From Escherichia phage RB14: DNA of 64,000 nt. The notes under the pieces were generated by a model, which saw only the letters and a program-made list of their open reading frames with translations, made no database searches and had not been told where the DNA came from. The DNA lies in the sequence record NC_012638.1; one strand, written 5' to 3'. Shown here one piece after another: positions 17,664-21,843 of the stretch (the stretch's first letter is position 1; each line of letters begins with the position of its first letter). A program made the position numbers and the translations under genes.

Positions 17664-17978
17664 CTAAAAGAAACTTCTTTCACAATTTTTTCCACTGAAC
17701 CACGCGCTCACTGCTTTCTTAGTCTCAGGAGCAGTGTTATCCATAAACCATTCAAAGGCAGCCTTTTTATGATTCTGGAGGGCTTCTCGGGCTTTAATCT
17801 GCTCACGGTCTATTAACACTAACATATGAGCCTTTCTTGTCACCAGGGGCTTCTTATGATTTTTTGAATATTCCCAATCATTTGTCCATCGCATTGTCGT
17901 TGCGAACTGATGAACCGCGTCTTTAATTTTAGTTTCATAAATTTCACGAGCCTTTGAGTATAACATCATTACCTCCAT
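17664..17978 (-). CDS. hypothetical protein
   Basis: ORF track 104 aa. Confidence 0.5.
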   Translation of the reverse strand: MEVMMLYSKAREIYETKIKDAVHQFATTMRWTNDWEYSKNHKKPLVTRKAHMLVLIDREQIKAREALQNHKKAAFEWFMDNTAPETKKAVSAWFSGKNCERSFF

Positions 17979-18048
17979 TTACCAGTTTAATTCTAGTCAT
18001 CTTTTTAATGGCAGTCCATATAATCTATTTCTGAACTGCCTTTTTGTC

Positions 18049-18768
18049 TTACGATTCTTCTAAATGTCTTTTCTGAAAAGTTGATACCATACTACGATAC
18101 GGTTCATTTGGATACCCATGTTTTATAGCTTCCTTTGTAAATTTTCTCCATCCATATTTAGTTTCTTTCCAAAGCTCGAATAATTCATCTTCATATTGCC
18201 ATATAGTTAAATGAGAACGCTTTGCAGCTTTAATTCCATTAATATGCTTTTCTTTTACTACAGGATTGCTTAGTTTCTTTTTAATAATATTACTAACTTT
18301 TCTAACAAAAACTGGGTCCTTATATCGTTGAGAAGTTTTTATTGAAGTGTTTAATTTAGCTTCCGGCGTGGATGTAACCTCTTTCATCTTTTTCTTCATA
18401 TGCTGTATATGATTAGGATTTTTCCATAAATTTATAGAATGCTTTTTGCATTTTATCCTAGTTTCATCTGCAACCTTTCCTCCTTCACCCCCGTATGACA
18501 GGTTAACACAGTTTTTTCCATATTTCAATTTACCTGCCATGATATATAATATTTCAGCTTGTACCATTTTATCATAATTATCAAAAACTTCTAAAACCGT
18601 TTTTGATAATATGTGGTCATTTGACACTTTTACACGTTCTATATAATTTCCACTACCAACATACGAATCATTGATGTTATTAGTTATATGTCGACCATAA
18701 TAGTATTTCTTAATACCTGTCTTTAAATTTAATATTTCAGTTTTATAGATAGTAAAATATTTTTTCAT
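18049..18768 (-). CDS. GIY-YIG (Seg-like) homing endonuclease
   Basis: 239 aa; N-terminal FTIYKTEILNLKTGIKKYYYGRHITNNINDSYVGSGNY resembles the Seg-family GIY...YIG core; basic C-terminal half. Confidence 0.6.
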   Translation of the reverse strand: MKKYFTIYKTEILNLKTGIKKYYYGRHITNNINDSYVGSGNYIERVKVSNDHILSKTVLEVFDNYDKMVQAEILYIMAGKLKYGKNCVNLSYGGEGGKVADETRIKCKKHSINLWKNPNHIQHMKKKMKEVTSTPEAKLNTSIKTSQRYKDPVFVRKVSNIIKKKLSNPVVKEKHINGIKAAKRSHLTIWQYEDELFELWKETKYGWRKFTKEAIKHGYPNEPYRSMVSTFQKRHLEES

Positions 18769-19733
18769 TTTAATAATACCGTTTCAGCAATTTCTTCCCA
18801 ATGATTTTTGTCGGTCATAATAAAGTCAGCAAGATAAAGAGCAGTACGCAGTGAAACATTGCGTAAACGATTAACATTGACTTTCATCCATGATAATGCT
18901 TTATAAGTTTCTTCATCAGAAAGACCGCGCTTTTGCATCATGTCGGTTGAAAGAATAACATCTTCAACCCTGACCATAATTTCTTCATTAGTGTGAACAC
19001 CCAAATCCAAATAAACTGAGCGGGACACTAATGCTTGTAAATGTGGAGCAAGTTTAGTACCACGGTCTAATTCGCGGTCAATGTCAACGTTTGTGATAAA
19101 AACAATCGTTCCTTTAAATTCAAACTCACGCTCAATGCCTTTTTCTTCTAAGTAAGAAGATGCAGTGCTCCAGCAGACTTTACGGGTCTCTCCAGTGTCC
19201 AGAGCAGCTTTTAGAAGATTAAGAATGTCCATATCAGAGAAAACATCCACATCATCAATCAAAAGGACAGAATTCTCTTCACGATTATTCCAAAGCTGTT
19301 CATAAAGACCGATACCAGAGATTTTACCATTAATGCTTTTATATTCAATGTATCCAATATCATTTGCTTTATTTAAAGCTTTATCCAAAGAATACGTTTT
19401 ACCAATACCTGCTGCTCCCGAGATAATTAATGAACGAATGTTTCCGTTAATAATACCATTCGTCATCATTCCCATAACATTAAATCTTTTATTAATGCGG
19501 GTTTTCATATCTTCATATGATTCTTTAACTTCTTCAACTTTTACGCCATCATATGAAATGTCTGATTTGTAAACCCAAACACCGCGACGTTTACCGTCAA
19601 TTTCAACAAAAACTTTACCATCTCCTTGTGCATCTACCGGAGCATTATCCGGGAACCATTCGCCTAAGAGCTCAAAAGTTCCAGAGATTTCTTTACCGAA
19701 GTAGATACCCTTATTGATAGTTACAGTTTTCAT
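18765..19733 (-). CDS. P-loop ATPase (AAA-like)
   Basis: 322 aa from ATG at 19733; Walker A GAAGIGKT, Walker B VLLIDDVD; early promoter upstream. Confidence 0.6.
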   Translation of the reverse strand: MKTVTINKGIYFGKEISGTFELLGEWFPDNAPVDAQGDGKVFVEIDGKRRGVWVYKSDISYDGVKVEEVKESYEDMKTRINKRFNVMGMMTNGIINGNIRSLIISGAAGIGKTYSLDKALNKANDIGYIEYKSINGKISGIGLYEQLWNNREENSVLLIDDVDVFSDMDILNLLKAALDTGETRKVCWSTASSYLEEKGIEREFEFKGTIVFITNVDIDRELDRGTKLAPHLQALVSRSVYLDLGVHTNEEIMVRVEDVILSTDMMQKRGLSDEETYKALSWMKVNVNRLRNVSLRTALYLADFIMTDKNHWEEIAETVLLK

Positions 19734-19767
19734 TTTATTCTCCAAATCCGTATCAGTTGATAGTTGT

Positions 19768-19797
19768 ATAGTACCATAAAGCTTTATGCTTGTAAAC
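19768..19797 (-). promoter_or_regulatory. Early promoter
   Basis: Minus strand GTTTACA-N17-TACTAT; leader ACAACTATCAACT...GGAGAATAAA. Confidence 0.6.
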
Positions 19798-19820
19798 CGT
19801 TTTGTGAAAAATTTTTGAAA

Positions 19821-19845
19821 TAAAAAAGGGAGCCCGAAGGCTCCC
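19821..19845 (-). terminator. Rho-independent terminator
   Basis: GGGAGCC-UUCG-GGCUCCC then UUUUUUA. Confidence 0.7.
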
Positions 19846-19847
19846 TA

Positions 19848-20861
19848 TCATTTATAATAACTTCGATGGTTTTTAAGATAGACCTTCTCAAGGAAGTCAT
19901 CCCAGAAACCCATGTCTACTTTTTGCTGCATACCGTTCTTAGAAGCTTCAATAGATGCTGCTTCTACTTGATCGACCACATCTTCCAAAAACTCTTGAAC
20001 GGTTTTAAATGGATGTTTACCCAACTTCACGTCGAGAATAAATGGAGCATCTTGGAGTGGATAAACCAAGTCACCAGTTTTGTAAATTTCCAATAGTTGG
20101 AGTCCACCACGACAAGCATGACTCAAAGCTTTCCAGTCAATGCCTTCATTGGCTTCGGCCTTACGGGCACGTTCACCATATTCAGCATCTAATTTGTTCA
20201 GTGACTGCTTAAGCTCAATAAGAGAAAGCGTCGTCTGATATTTACGACCCAACACAGTGTAGAACGTTTGTGGGCCTGTTTTCTCATGATTATGGAACAC
20301 CCATTCACAGAATTCGTTTTCTGGAAGACGATGCTTAATATCTTCAACTTTAGTGCGACGCTGCTTAATAGAACCATCTTCTTGGTAATCAACCCATTGC
20401 TCAGGGATTTGATTAACTACTTTCAATACATCACGTAATGCAGCCAAACGAGAACCCTTGACACCGTATTTAGAAGCTTGCTTGCGGACATATCCTAAAT
20501 ATGATTTCATGTTAGTCGTATAAAAACGAGAACGGTTGTCTTGAATAAACTTCCACACATCAGGCAAATCAGATTTAACCACTAGTTCAGGTGGAGTGTG
20601 AAGCATATCTAATGCTACGGTTTCACCATCTGCTGCTAATTTAAAGAAATATTTAAGACTGTATAGTTCATGGTCAATATCATCTTTAGTGTTTTTAGAT
20701 GATGTGTTGTTGGTATTTTTACTCATATGCTCTTTAACATTTCCGATAAGAATATCACGAGCAGGAGGAACAAAGATTTCTTTAAAATCTACATCAGATT
20801 CTGGAGTAGAAGTTCCATAAAGATGACTACCAAAATAGCTTTTCATTACTGTTTTCATCAT
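19848..20861 (-). CDS. Pol-beta superfamily nucleotidyltransferase-fold protein
   Basis: 337 aa; N-terminal GS-x10-DVD (YFGSHLYGTSTPESDVDF) and downstream VALDML acidic site. Confidence 0.55.
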   Translation of the reverse strand: MMKTVMKSYFGSHLYGTSTPESDVDFKEIFVPPARDILIGNVKEHMSKNTNNTSSKNTKDDIDHELYSLKYFFKLAADGETVALDMLHTPPELVVKSDLPDVWKFIQDNRSRFYTTNMKSYLGYVRKQASKYGVKGSRLAALRDVLKVVNQIPEQWVDYQEDGSIKQRRTKVEDIKHRLPENEFCEWVFHNHEKTGPQTFYTVLGRKYQTTLSLIELKQSLNKLDAEYGERARKAEANEGIDWKALSHACRGGLQLLEIYKTGDLVYPLQDAPFILDVKLGKHPFKTVQEFLEDVVDQVEAASIEASKNGMQQKVDMGFWDDFLEKVYLKNHRSYYK

Positions 20862-21319
20862 TCAGCCTTATATTCAATAACAGGACATACTTTAGCTTTA
20901 CGAGCTTTTAAAAATTCAACGATAACCGATTTCTTGGGTTGAATAGGAGGTAAACCTTTATACGCCCTATCAATATTTTCTACGTGTAAAGCATAATCCT
21001 TTTTCCATTTATAATCTTTATATTTTTCACGCAAATGTGCAGGAATAACAAATGAACCGATAATAAGTAAAACAACCAAAAGCGCAAGTATAAATGCTGA
21101 TGGAAGCAAAGTCCATAAACTACCGAAAATAAGCCAACGTTGTAGGCTTTCTACACAAATAATTGTTAGCCCTACGAGTATAGCACATCCAAAAATAGAA
21201 ACGAAAAATGTAGGAATGGCAATAGACCAAAAATATGCGCATAGTGTCTTAGGTCGTTGCCATTCATCGTTAAACAATTTGAATAATTTATAATGCCAAG
21301 AGTTTTCATTAATAATCAT
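20858..21319 (-). CDS. membrane protein
   Basis: 153 aa; two or three hydrophobic helices. Confidence 0.5.
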   Translation of the reverse strand: MIINENSWHYKLFKLFNDEWQRPKTLCAYFWSIAIPTFFVSIFGCAILVGLTIICVESLQRWLIFGSLWTLLPSAFILALLVVLLIIGSFVIPAHLREKYKDYKWKKDYALHVENIDRAYKGLPPIQPKKSVIVEFLKARKAKVCPVIEYKAE

Positions 21320-21321
21320 AA

Positions 21322-21843
21322 TTATCCTTTCATTGAAGGCGTAACGGTTGTTAAATACTTAATCATAGCTTCAGCTTCTGATTTTGATAATGAAATTTCT
21401 CCATTGTTTTGACGAATAGAAATAAAATCTGGATGACGGTCACCACCAGCTTTTAAAACACACATATAAGTATCAACTTCGCCTTCAATATTTGAAATGA
21501 TTGAAGCAGTTCCACATGAATGTGGTTTTTGATAAATCAATACAGCTTTTCTTCCACCGTTTGACTGTTCATAGGCTTTTAATACATCAAGCAAATCAGT
21601 TCTTTTATCAATAGCTAAAATGTTATTTTCATCTTCAATGTTAAATCCTTCGGATACTTCATAAAGTGTTACCCATAAATCACCAATGTCAATAACAGCA
21701 TTTACGTTTCCACGGCTTTCAAGAGTATGACAAATTTTCTTGATTTCGTCATAACTCATTTTAATAATATCATCTCCTTGAATAAGAAAGATGTCATTTT
21801 TAAATTCAACACGAATTAAACCACTTCCACTTGAAATAAACAT
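21322..21843 (-). CDS. hypothetical protein
   Basis: ORF track 173 aa. Confidence 0.5.
   Translation of the reverse strand: MFISSGSGLIRVEFKNDIFLIQGDDIIKMSYDEIKKICHTLESRGNVNAVIDIGDLWVTLYEVSEGFNIEDENNILAIDKRTDLLDVLKAYEQSNGGRKAVLIYQKPHSCGTASIISNIEGEVDTYMCVLKAGGDRHPDFISIRQNNGEISLSKSEAEAMIKYLTTVTPSMKG

What the first reader, a model, noticed from the sequence alone, without database searches (positions are those of the whole stretch)
18049..18768. Free-standing GIY-YIG (Seg-like) homing endonuclease gene between conserved early ORFs
The N-terminal 40 aa match the Seg-family GIY-YIG core (TIY...KKYYYGRH...YVGSGNY), and the rest of the protein is basic and likely DNA-binding. Its start overlaps the stop of the upstream ATPase gene. 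Such genes are mobile and differ between T-even phages; T4 has a different endonuclease (mobD) in this neighbourhood.
Basis: partly seen in the sequence, partly recalled or inferred. Interest (0 to 1): 0.45.

Follow-up and report, generated by a model that had tools for sequence, protein, structure and literature searches.

The report
Seg-like homing endonuclease gene after nrdC.10
This is an intact copy of a selfish "homing" nuclease gene that sits behind the phage gene nrdC.10 in about one in eight T4-like coliphages; databases already annotate it as such, so the finding is correct but ordinary.

Summary
The ORF is real: 18049-18768, minus strand, 239 aa. Its ATG overlaps the TGA of the upstream AAA-like gene nrdC.10 (ATGA). 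The window is a Tequatrovirus of the RB32/RB51/T6 type. The gene is 99-100% identical to GenBank genes annotated [quoted passage not shown] (RB32ORF093c).

The gene occurs in 65 phage records. An intact empty site occurs in 434 (about 13% occupied). It always lies at this locus. Eight copies give pN/pS of about 0.1, and two (RB3, AR1) are frameshifted.

Orthologues 44-52% identical occupy the same site in Dhakavirus and Jiaodavirus, again sporadically. In all three genera the occupied allele carries a recoded last 4-6 codons of nrdC.10. This marks that tail as the likely homing site (inferred, not shown).

The parts
18049..18768 (-). Free-standing Seg-like GIY-YIG homing endonuclease gene, 239 aa plus TAA stop; equals RB32ORF093c
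   Evidence: ORF listing. 97.5-99.4% nucleotide identity to 65 phage records annotated as putative site-specific intron-like or homing endonuclease. PHROG 314, E 1.8e-30.
18475..18768 (-). Codons 1-98: GIY-YIG catalytic domain, with TIY (Y8), YYG (Y23, G25), H27, D34, Y36, G38-S39-G40, E72, N89 and GGEGG (93-97)
18211..18474 (-). Codons 99-186: very basic helical linker with NUMOD3-like repeats (for example DPVFVRKVSNIIKKK and NPVVKEKHINGIK); presumed DNA-contacting region
   Evidence: pI 10.5. It aligns to the repeated 'seetkkkis..k' region of the family profile. 36 of 96 relatives match Pfam NUMOD3, but the query itself does not.
18052..18210 (-). Codons 187-239: C-terminal three-helix module W..EL..LW...F.K.A...GYPN..Y..M; presumed sequence-specific DNA-binding domain
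   Evidence: Conserved in the closest relatives and absent from SegB and SegH. It occurs once to three times in tandem in other Seg-like proteins. No Pfam match. The single-sequence AF2 model gives pLDDT of about 80 with three helices.
18765..18768 (-). ATGA start/stop overlap with nrdC.10. No Shine-Dalgarno sequence precedes it, which implies translational coupling or re-initiation.
   Evidence: Sequence. The 25 nt upstream are AAATTGCTGAAACGGTATTATTAAA, with no GGAG-like element. The Dhakavirus orthologue has the same ATGA overlap.
18765..18783 (-). HEG-linked recoded tail of nrdC.10: (GCTGA)AACGGTATTATTAAAATGA encoding ETVLLK*. Empty alleles read (GCTGA)GGTTACTCTTCTGAAATAA encoding EVTLLK*.
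   Evidence: Occupied versus empty alignments. In one search, every listed HEG-free record aligns only from query position 16-18. The same recoding is seen in the Dhakavirus pair, and an analogous one in the Jiaodavirus pair.
18052..18783 (-). Whole cassette that distinguishes occupied from empty genomes: 732 nt here, against 35 nt (GGTTACTCTTCTGAAATAATTCATAAGAGGCCTTC) in RB27
   Evidence: Alignments A1 and the four-genome alignment. Divergence outside this block is at background level, about 1-3 differences per 50 nt.
18765..19745 (-). nrdC.10 (326 aa, AAA-like NTPase). It is the upstream host gene, and its 3' end is the proposed homing site.
   Evidence: Present in about 500 Tequatrovirus records at 95% identity or more.
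19768..19796 (-). Sigma-70-like promoter match (TTTACA-17-TACTAT, with TG) upstream of nrdC.10; the likely source of the transcript carrying the endonuclease gene
   Evidence: Consensus scan only. No TATAAATA late-promoter or MotA-box match was found anywhere in 17900-19900.
19827..19846 (-). Intrinsic-terminator-like hairpin after nrdC.11, which separates the nrdC.10-HEG unit from upstream transcription
   Evidence: 8-bp stem, 6 GC pairs, followed by a T-run.
18012..18042 (-). Backbone hairpin just downstream of the cassette (9-bp stem, -13.9 kcal/mol). It is present in empty and occupied genomes, so it is not part of the mobile unit.
17664..17978 (-). nrdC.9 (DUF7203), the downstream flanking gene

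Best explanation
The ORF encodes a free-standing homing endonuclease of the T-even Seg type. It has three parts: an N-terminal GIY-YIG nuclease domain (about aa 1-98), a highly basic NUMOD3-like linker, and a C-terminal helical DNA-binding module. It is a cassette with no promoter and no Shine-Dalgarno sequence. It is probably transcribed with nrdC.10 from the early-type promoter upstream of that gene, and translated at a low level by termination-reinitiation at the ATGA overlap (inferred). When a phage carrying it co-infects a cell with a relative that lacks it, the enzyme is predicted to cut the empty allele. The predicted cut lies in or near the conserved last ~20 nt of nrdC.10 (GARGTWACWNTKCTGAAATAA). 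Double-strand-break repair from the occupied allele would then copy in the cassette. The cassette carries its own recoded version of those codons, so the occupied allele no longer offers the site. Shown here: the gene, its fold and catalytic residues, its sporadic presence at a single locus, the exact occupied/empty boundaries in three genera, purifying selection, and occasional decay. Inferred: nuclease activity, the position of the cleavage site, and ongoing mobility.

For: Mobility signature: the gene occurs in 65 records, always as one copy at this locus, against 434 records with an intact empty junction. T4 and RB27 are empty. The divergent block is sharply bounded at 18052-18783.

Orthologues sit at the same junction in two other genera. 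In Dhakavirus they appear in two metagenome contigs, while none of the about 50 cultured records at 90-99% identity holds the gene (no record covers 80% of the query). In Jiaodavirus 7 records are occupied and about 136 are empty. In each genus the occupied allele has an altered nrdC.10 tail, whereas the empty tails are nearly identical across genera.

Maintenance and decay: eight copies show 24 synonymous and 10 non-synonymous differences, pN/pS about 0.10. The RB3 copy has +7 G and the AR1 copy has -1 nt, both disrupting the frame.

Expression: no late or middle promoter match and no Shine-Dalgarno sequence were found, and there is a promoter-like site upstream of nrdC.10. This fits the 'promoter-less cassette with overlap' pattern described for segC/F/G and mobA/C/D/E (PMC2988022).
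Confidence: 0.8

Rival explanations
1. The nuclease is domesticated. The phage keeps the gene because it benefits the phage, not because it homes efficiently. Possible benefits are excluding markers of co-infecting relatives, or triggering recombination and segmental amplification as reported for SegB in T6.
For: Purifying selection, pN/pS about 0.10. Long persistence at one locus in three genera with 44-52% protein identity. SegB of T6 was recently shown to drive amplification of anti-defence loci (PMC13096335). Marker exclusion by Seg enzymes is established (PMC2988022).
Against: Only about 13% of Tequatrovirus records, about 5% of Jiaodavirus records and no cultured Dhakavirus record carry it. 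Frameshifted copies exist. A generally useful gene would be commoner. This reading is also not exclusive of homing.
Confidence: 0.1
2. The endonuclease is catalytically dead or crippled. The ORF survives as a DNA-binding protein or a recently inactivated relic and no longer moves.
For: The query has no Pfam GIY-YIG hit. No counterpart of I-TevI Arg27 could be aligned. It departs from several near-invariant positions of the consensus Seg cluster. Decay is visible in RB3 and AR1.
Against: Y8, Y23, G25, H27, E72 and N89 are all intact, and the same Arg27-less core is shared by T4 SegB, which is listed as active. Of the 10 non-synonymous changes, only two fall in the catalytic domain and both are conservative (I19V, V46I). 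The ORF is full length in at least 50 records at 99% protein identity or more.
Confidence: 0.07
3. The gene is ancestral and has been lost repeatedly. It was present in the common ancestor of these Tevenvirinae genera, and most lineages deleted it. On this reading the patchy distribution reflects loss, not invasion.
For: The gene sits at the same junction in three genera, and the proteins are about as far apart as the genera or further. nrdC.10 is 73-76% identical between the genera.
Against: Empty alleles in all three genera share a nearly identical nrdC.10 tail (GAGGTTACTCTTCTGAAATAA, GAAGTTACACTTCTGAAATAA, GAAGTAACAATGCTGAAATAA), while occupied alleles carry different tails. Independent deletions would not regenerate that sequence. 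Within Tequatrovirus, carriers span several species (T6, RB3, RB32, AR1, SHFML-11) and share flanking polymorphisms with empty genomes right up to the cassette.
Confidence: 0.03

Closest known systems
T4 SegB, and SegH of U5/PP01-type phages (free-standing GIY-YIG homing endonucleases of T-even phages)
   Same: They share the catalytic core Y..Y......YxG.H.T.N.ND.Y.GSG ... E ... N..GGxGG. tblastn gives E 1e-5 to T4 segB and 2e-6 to PP01 segH. All are free-standing genes between conserved phage genes, of similar length, with a basic region after the nuclease domain.
   Different: Identity is only 27-31%, and only over the N-terminal two thirds. The insertion locus differs: SegB lies among the tRNA genes and SegH between nrdD and nrdG. 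The C-terminal GYPN module of this protein is absent from SegB and SegH. SegB has been shown to be active; this gene has not been tested.
I-TevI (td-intron GIY-YIG homing endonuclease; catalytic-domain structure 1LN0)
   Different: I-TevI is intron-encoded; this gene is free-standing. The I-TevI alpha-1 helix with R27 and H31 is replaced here by the loop H27-T29-D34-Y36-GSG. The query has no match to the I-TevI DNA-binding domain family.
RB32ORF093c and its copies in T6, RB3, RB5-10, RB51, RB68, AR1, SHFML-11 and others
   Same: This is the same gene at the same locus, 97.5-99.4% identical in DNA. The protein is 100% identical to those of phage 132 and RB68.
   Different: Nothing essential differs. 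Some records misname it segE (AR1, RB68) or leave it unannotated. The RB3 and AR1 copies are frameshifted.
Orthologous endonuclease genes behind nrdC.10 in Dhakavirus-like contigs (L014/L015) and Jiaodavirus (Klebsiella phage ValerieMcCarty03)
   Same: They are collinear, full-length proteins of 238-240 aa that include the C-terminal GYP(N/D) module. They sit at the same junction after nrdC.10, are sporadic within their genus, and come with an altered nrdC.10 tail.
   Different: Protein identity is 44-52%. The Jiaodavirus copy starts 8 nt after the nrdC.10 stop instead of overlapping it, and it replaces a terminator-like hairpin.

Membership tests
GIY-YIG nuclease superfamily | 'GIY' motif with its conserved Tyr (I-TevI Y6) | tested here: met
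   T6-I7-Y8. Y8 is invariant in 96 relatives and aligns to I-TevI Y6.
GIY-YIG nuclease superfamily | 'YIG' motif with its Tyr and Gly (I-TevI Y17, G19) | tested here: met
   Y23-Y24-G25. G25 is invariant and Y23 is conserved in 90% or more of relatives. They align to Y17 and G19.
GIY-YIG nuclease superfamily | Conserved Arg on the first helix (I-TevI R27) | tested here: inconclusive
   In hhalign the I-TevI segment D23-H31 falls in a gap. The subfamily instead has the conserved loop H27, T29, D34, Y36, G38-S39-G40. R26 and R45 are nearby but were not shown to be equivalent. SegB and SegH share this arrangement. Model coordinates could not be inspected.
GIY-YIG nuclease superfamily | Metal-binding Glu (I-TevI E75) and the structural Asn (N90) | tested here: met
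   E72 and N89 are invariant in alignments A2, A3 and A4 and align to E75 and N90.
GIY-YIG nuclease superfamily | Three-stranded sheet plus helices (the GIY-YIG fold) | tested here: met
GIY-YIG nuclease superfamily | Match to a curated family model (Pfam PF01541 or PF19835) at threshold | tested here: not met
   The full protein and the N-terminal 100 aa give no Pfam hit, and there is no NCBIfam hit. Of its 96 relatives, 33 match PF01541 and 43 match PF19835, so membership is transitive.
T-even Seg-type free-standing homing endonuclease genes | Free-standing gene between conserved phage genes, not inside an intron or intein | tested here: met
   It lies between nrdC.10 and nrdC.9, and both flanking ORFs are intact.
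T-even Seg-type free-standing homing endonuclease genes | Presence/absence polymorphism among close relatives at one fixed locus | tested here: met
   65 records are occupied and 434 hold the intact empty junction. There is one place per record, always next to nrdC.10. The pattern repeats in Jiaodavirus (7 occupied, about 136 empty) and Dhakavirus.
T-even Seg-type free-standing homing endonuclease genes | Site-specific double-strand cleavage of the endonuclease-free allele | not testable with these tools
   There is only indirect support. The nrdC.10 tail is conserved in empty alleles and recoded in occupied alleles in three genera.
T-even Seg-type free-standing homing endonuclease genes | Super-Mendelian inheritance with co-conversion of flanks in mixed infection | not testable with these tools
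   No long co-conversion tract is visible in the sampled genomes. Testing this requires phage crosses.
T-even Seg-type free-standing homing endonuclease genes | Modular build: nuclease domain plus separate DNA-binding region (NUMOD-type motifs or HTH) | tested here: inconclusive
   The basic helical region 99-186 aligns to the NUMOD3-rich part of the family profile, and there is a C-terminal three-helix module. No curated DNA-binding model matches the query.
SegE of T4 (the label some GenBank records give this gene) | Orthology to T4 segE (between inh and uvsW, targeting uvsW) | tested here: not met
   T4 segE lies at inh/uvsW (PMC2988022). This gene lies at nrdC.10/nrdC.9. tblastn finds only one place in T4, which is segB at 27.5% identity. 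T4 SegE was not aligned directly.

The most novel reading that the evidence does not exclude
This would be a distinct, uncharacterised Seg lineage dedicated to the stop-codon region of nrdC.10 in at least three Tevenvirinae genera. Unlike SegF and SegG, it would cut essentially at its own insertion point, and it would protect the carrier by bringing a recoded copy of the last 4-6 codons of the host gene. It would read DNA through a ~50-aa 'W..EL..LW...GYP(N/D)..Y..M' helical module. That module has no Pfam family and occurs in one to three tandem copies in other Seg-like proteins, so it may be an undescribed nuclease-associated DNA-binding domain.
Probability: 0.4. Interest if true: 0.35.

Novelty: already known. 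Interest (0 to 1): 0.17.

Why it matters
Free-standing homing endonucleases shape mosaicism and marker exclusion among T-even phages. Each characterised one has supplied a new DNA-recognition specificity. This gene adds little conceptually. It has been annotated as seg-like since the RB32 genome, and it falls within the seg-like counts of the 2010 survey of T4-related genomes (PMC2993671).

The comparison made here does have modest practical value. It gives exact cassette boundaries. It also gives three independent occupied/empty allele pairs, which point to a short, testable candidate target at the 3' end of nrdC.10. The comparison also corrects several database labels and flags an uncatalogued C-terminal DNA-binding module.

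Tried and rejected
- Pfam and NCBIfam scans of the whole protein and of its two halves found nothing useful.
- phmmer of the protein against PDB sequences found nothing. The family profile reached I-TevI only at E 0.24.
- The single-sequence AlphaFold model was too poor to use for the nuclease domain (pLDDT 42).
- The first word-indexed protein search returned only two clusters. It made the protein look isolated until the exhaustive search found 1419 relatives.
- P0002 first looked like an N-terminally truncated relic. Reading the DNA showed a full-length ORF with a miscalled start.
- I looked for paralogues of this subfamily in the window and found none.
- I looked for late (TATAAATA) and MotA-type middle promoters and for a Shine-Dalgarno sequence around the gene and found none.
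- I looked for an extended co-conversion tract in the flanks and found only background divergence. The differences at 18788 and 18802-18805 that first looked cassette-linked turned out to be lineage polymorphisms, because RB32, a carrier, has the empty-type bases there.
- Literature searches for nrdC.9, nrdC.10 and RB32ORF093c found no functional study.

Full report
**1. Observation**

The window holds an ORF on the minus strand from 18768 to 18049 (ATG to TAA, 239 aa). Read on the minus strand, 18768-18765 is ATGA, so the ATG overlaps the TGA stop of the upstream 326-aa ORF at 18765-19745.

That upstream ORF gives sub-threshold AAA/STAND NTPase matches and has Walker-like motifs. The endonuclease candidate is basic, with pI 9.8 overall and pI 10.5 for residues 99-186. 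It is not a chance ORF. PHROG 314 'homing endonuclease' scores E 1.8e-30. A profile built from 96 relatives scores it at 1e-54 and hits nothing else in the window.

**2. Where the window comes from, and what is already annotated**

The 3-kb neighbourhood is 98-98.5% identical to many Tequatrovirus genomes, including RB32, RB51, RB68, T6, RB3 and AR1. In RB32 the flanking genes are nrdC.10 and nrdC.9. The gene itself is RB32ORF093c, annotated 'putative site-specific intron-like DNA endonuclease, similar to seg'. The T6 record says the same.

The protein is 100% identical to those of phage 132 and RB68. A 2010 survey of T4-related genomes counts two seg-like GIY-YIG genes in RB32, six in T6 and four in RB3 (PMC2993671). 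I found no paper that studies this particular gene. Some records call it segE. That is a misnomer, because T4 segE lies between inh and uvsW (PMC2988022), and the only T4 locus that resembles this protein is segB at 27.5% identity.

**3. Is it a GIY-YIG enzyme?**

Curated models do not see the query directly. Pfam and NCBIfam gave no hit, even for the isolated N-terminal 100 residues. Membership rests on four transitive or structural lines of evidence.

- An exhaustive HMMER search found 1419 relatives at E<=1e-3. Of 96 that were aligned, 43 match Pfam SegE_GIY-YIG, 33 match GIY-YIG and 36 match NUMOD3.
- In that alignment Y8, G25, Y36, G38, G40, E72 and N89 are invariant. Y23, H27, T29, D34, S39, G93 and G94 are nearly so.
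- The family profile aligns in register with the I-TevI catalytic domain. Y8, Y23 and G25 fall on Y6, Y17 and G19, E72 on E75, and N89 on N90 (PDB search E 0.24; hhalign probability 81%, E 1.2e-05).

One canonical feature is unresolved. The I-TevI helix that carries R27 and H31 falls in a gap. This subfamily has a conserved loop there instead (H27...D34.Y36.GSG). T4 SegB and PP01 SegH have the same arrangement, and SegB is listed as an active enzyme (PMC2988022). The variant core is therefore compatible with activity.

**4. Rest of the protein**

Residues 99-186 are helical and very basic. They align with the NUMOD3-type repeats of the family profile. Residues 187-239 form a three-helix module, W..EL..LW...F.K.A...GYPN..Y..M. 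It is shared by the closest relatives and absent from SegB and SegH. In other Seg-like proteins it occurs in two or three tandem copies. It has no Pfam family. The overall build of nuclease, linker and DNA-binding module is that of I-TevI-type enzymes. DNA binding itself is inferred.

**5. Distribution**

The gene is found in 65 phage records. Each holds one copy, always next to nrdC.10, at 97.5-99.4% identity. nrdC.10 at 95% identity or more occurs in about 500 records. A 121-nt probe across the empty RB27 junction is intact in 434 records and broken in 63. About 13% of sequenced Tequatrovirus genomes therefore carry the gene. T4 and RB27 do not. Carriers include several ICTV species (T6, RB3, RB32, AR1, SHFML-11) and phages isolated on Escherichia, Shigella, Salmonella and Yersinia.

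**6. Boundaries**

I aligned the window with RB32 (occupied) and with RB27 and T4 (both empty). Divergence is at background level everywhere except one block. On the coding strand the two states read as follows.

- Empty: ...GAAATCGCTGA|GGTTACTCTTCTGAAATAATTCATAAGAGGCCTTC|TAAGA...
- Occupied: ...GAAATTGCTGA|AACGGTATTATTAAAATGAAAAAA...[endonuclease gene]...GAATCG|TAAGA...

The cassette is window 18052-18783, which is 732 nt in place of 35 nt. It includes a replacement for the last six codons of nrdC.10: ETVLLK* in place of EVTLLK*, with about half of the nucleotides changed. A 9-bp hairpin downstream (18012-18042) belongs to the backbone.

**7. The same element in two other genera**

A Jiaodavirus, Klebsiella phage ValerieMcCarty03, has a 46%-identical, collinear homologue directly behind its nrdC.10 homologue. 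Seven Jiaodavirus records are occupied and about 136 are empty.

A protein found in the metagenome collection (P0002) first looked N-terminally truncated. The DNA shows a full-length 240-aa ORF with a miscalled start. It lies between nrdC.10 and nrdC.9 homologues on Dhakavirus-like contigs. It has the same ATGA overlap and almost the same recoded tail (GAAACGGTTTTATTAAAATGA). No cultured record covers 80% of that query, and all listed Dhakavirus records match in two pieces that lack about 700 nt, so they are empty.

The three endonucleases are 44-52% identical to each other. nrdC.10 is 73-76% identical between the genera. The nrdC.10 tails compare as follows.

| Genus | Empty tail | Occupied tail |
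|---|---|---|
| Tequatrovirus | GAGGTTACTCTTCTGAAATAA | GAAACGGTATTATTAAAATGA |
| Dhakavirus | GAAGTTACACTTCTGAAATAA | GAAACGGTTTTATTAAAATGA |
| Jiaodavirus | GAAGTAACAATGCTGAAATAA | GAAGTAACCCAACTCCGTGGATAA |

So there are three independent occupied/empty pairs. In each, the empty tail is conserved and the occupied tail is altered. The simplest reading is that the nrdC.10 tail is, or overlaps, the homing site, and that carriers are protected by the recoding. This is an inference. Other Seg enzymes often cut hundreds of base pairs from their gene (PMC2988022).

**8. Selection and decay**

Across eight Tequatrovirus copies there are 24 synonymous and 10 non-synonymous differences, giving pN/pS of about 0.10. 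In the catalytic domain only I19V and V46I occur. The RB3 copy has seven extra G in a G-run. The AR1 copy lacks one base. Both break the frame, and the records annotate split or shortened ORFs. Sequencing error cannot be excluded for these two. Maintenance in most genomes with occasional decay fits the usual life cycle of homing endonuclease genes.

**9. Expression (inferred)**

A strong terminator-like hairpin follows nrdC.11 (19846-19827). A sigma-70-like site (19796-19768) precedes nrdC.10. No late-promoter or MotA-box match and no Shine-Dalgarno sequence precede the endonuclease gene. The gene therefore looks like a promoter-less cassette translated by re-initiation at the ATGA overlap. 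The 2010 review describes this same arrangement for several seg and mob genes and interprets it as keeping nuclease levels low.

**10. Verdict**

The feature is an ordinary Seg-like GIY-YIG homing endonuclease gene that databases already annotate but nobody has characterised.

This analysis adds four things:
- exact cassette boundaries;
- the presence of the same element at the same site in three genera;
- a short candidate target at the 3' end of nrdC.10;
- an uncatalogued C-terminal module.

Rival readings are less likely, for the reasons given in their entries: a domesticated nuclease, a dead relic, or an ancestral gene with repeated loss. Interest is low.

Noticed in passing
L014:2872-3597 (Logan contig SRR25011262_2357); also L015: The database protein P0002 (197 aa) has a miscalled start. 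The DNA encodes a full-length 240-aa GIY-YIG endonuclease whose ATG overlaps the nrdC.10 stop. It is a Dhakavirus-type copy of the element, and the phage collection holds no cultured representative of it.
   Followed up: yes
L006:601-1327 (RB3) and L007:601-1319 (AR1): The RB3 copy has seven extra G after nt 276, in the GGGGG run. The AR1 copy lacks nt 458. Both disrupt the reading frame, and the records annotate split or shortened ORFs. This could be real decay or homopolymer sequencing error.
   Followed up: partly
window 18052-18210 (codons 187-239); proteins P0008, P0011, P0020, P0040, P0121, P0130: The ~50-aa module W..EL..LW...F.K.A...GYP(N/D)..Y..M occurs in one to three tandem copies at the C-termini of other Seg-like GIY-YIG proteins and matches no Pfam family. 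It may be an undescribed nuclease-associated DNA-binding domain.
   Followed up: partly
L004:2344-2400 (T4 nrdC.10 3' end): T4's nrdC.10 tail is frameshifted relative to RB27 (GCTACGGGTTACTCTTCTGAAATAAATTCATAA, ending EIATGYSSEINS*). T4 is therefore an empty allele with a slightly altered candidate target.
   Followed up: no
window 20858-21843; L004:4430-5209: T4 has the HNH gene mobD after nrdC.11. The window has instead a 153-aa predicted membrane protein and a 173-aa ORF, as in RB32, whose record notes 'replaces mobD'. This is a second variable endonuclease site about 2 kb from the finding.
   Followed up: partly
GenBank records listed: Annotation errors have propagated. nrdC.10 (AAA-like) and its neighbours are labelled 'thioredoxin' in many records. 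This endonuclease is labelled 'segE' in AR1 and RB68. T6 record AP018814 shows 'tail sheath protein' and 'HNH homing endonuclease' within this 3-kb stretch.
   Followed up: no
records OZ035760.1 (NIC06P2), MW883059.1 (SYGD1), MZ189262.1 (W143): These carriers match the 3-kb query in two or three pieces that span 0.5-1.1 kb more than the query. They must hold further insertions within nrdC.8-nrdC.11. SYGD1 lists an 'ADP-ribosylase' there.
   Followed up: no
record PP355766.1 (Klebsiella phage vB_Kpn_AM_K4, 288,685 bp): The Jiaodavirus-type endonuclease gene alone (95.7% identity) matches a place annotated next to 'nrdA_3' in an unusually long record that holds three matching places. This is either a different insertion site or a concatenated assembly.
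   Followed up: no
window 18012-18042, minus strand: A conserved 9-bp hairpin (GGCAGTTCA...TGGACTGCC, -13.9 kcal/mol) lies between the cassette and nrdC.9. It has no T-run and is present in empty and occupied genomes. A promoter-like match (18018-17990) overlaps it.
   Followed up: partly
model m741202c767a7: The best structural neighbour of the nuclease domain is 9u75_A, a bacterial GIY-YIG restriction enzyme (PD-T4-3) described as specific for 5hmC DNA and active against T4. It scores marginally ahead of I-TevI.
   Followed up: no
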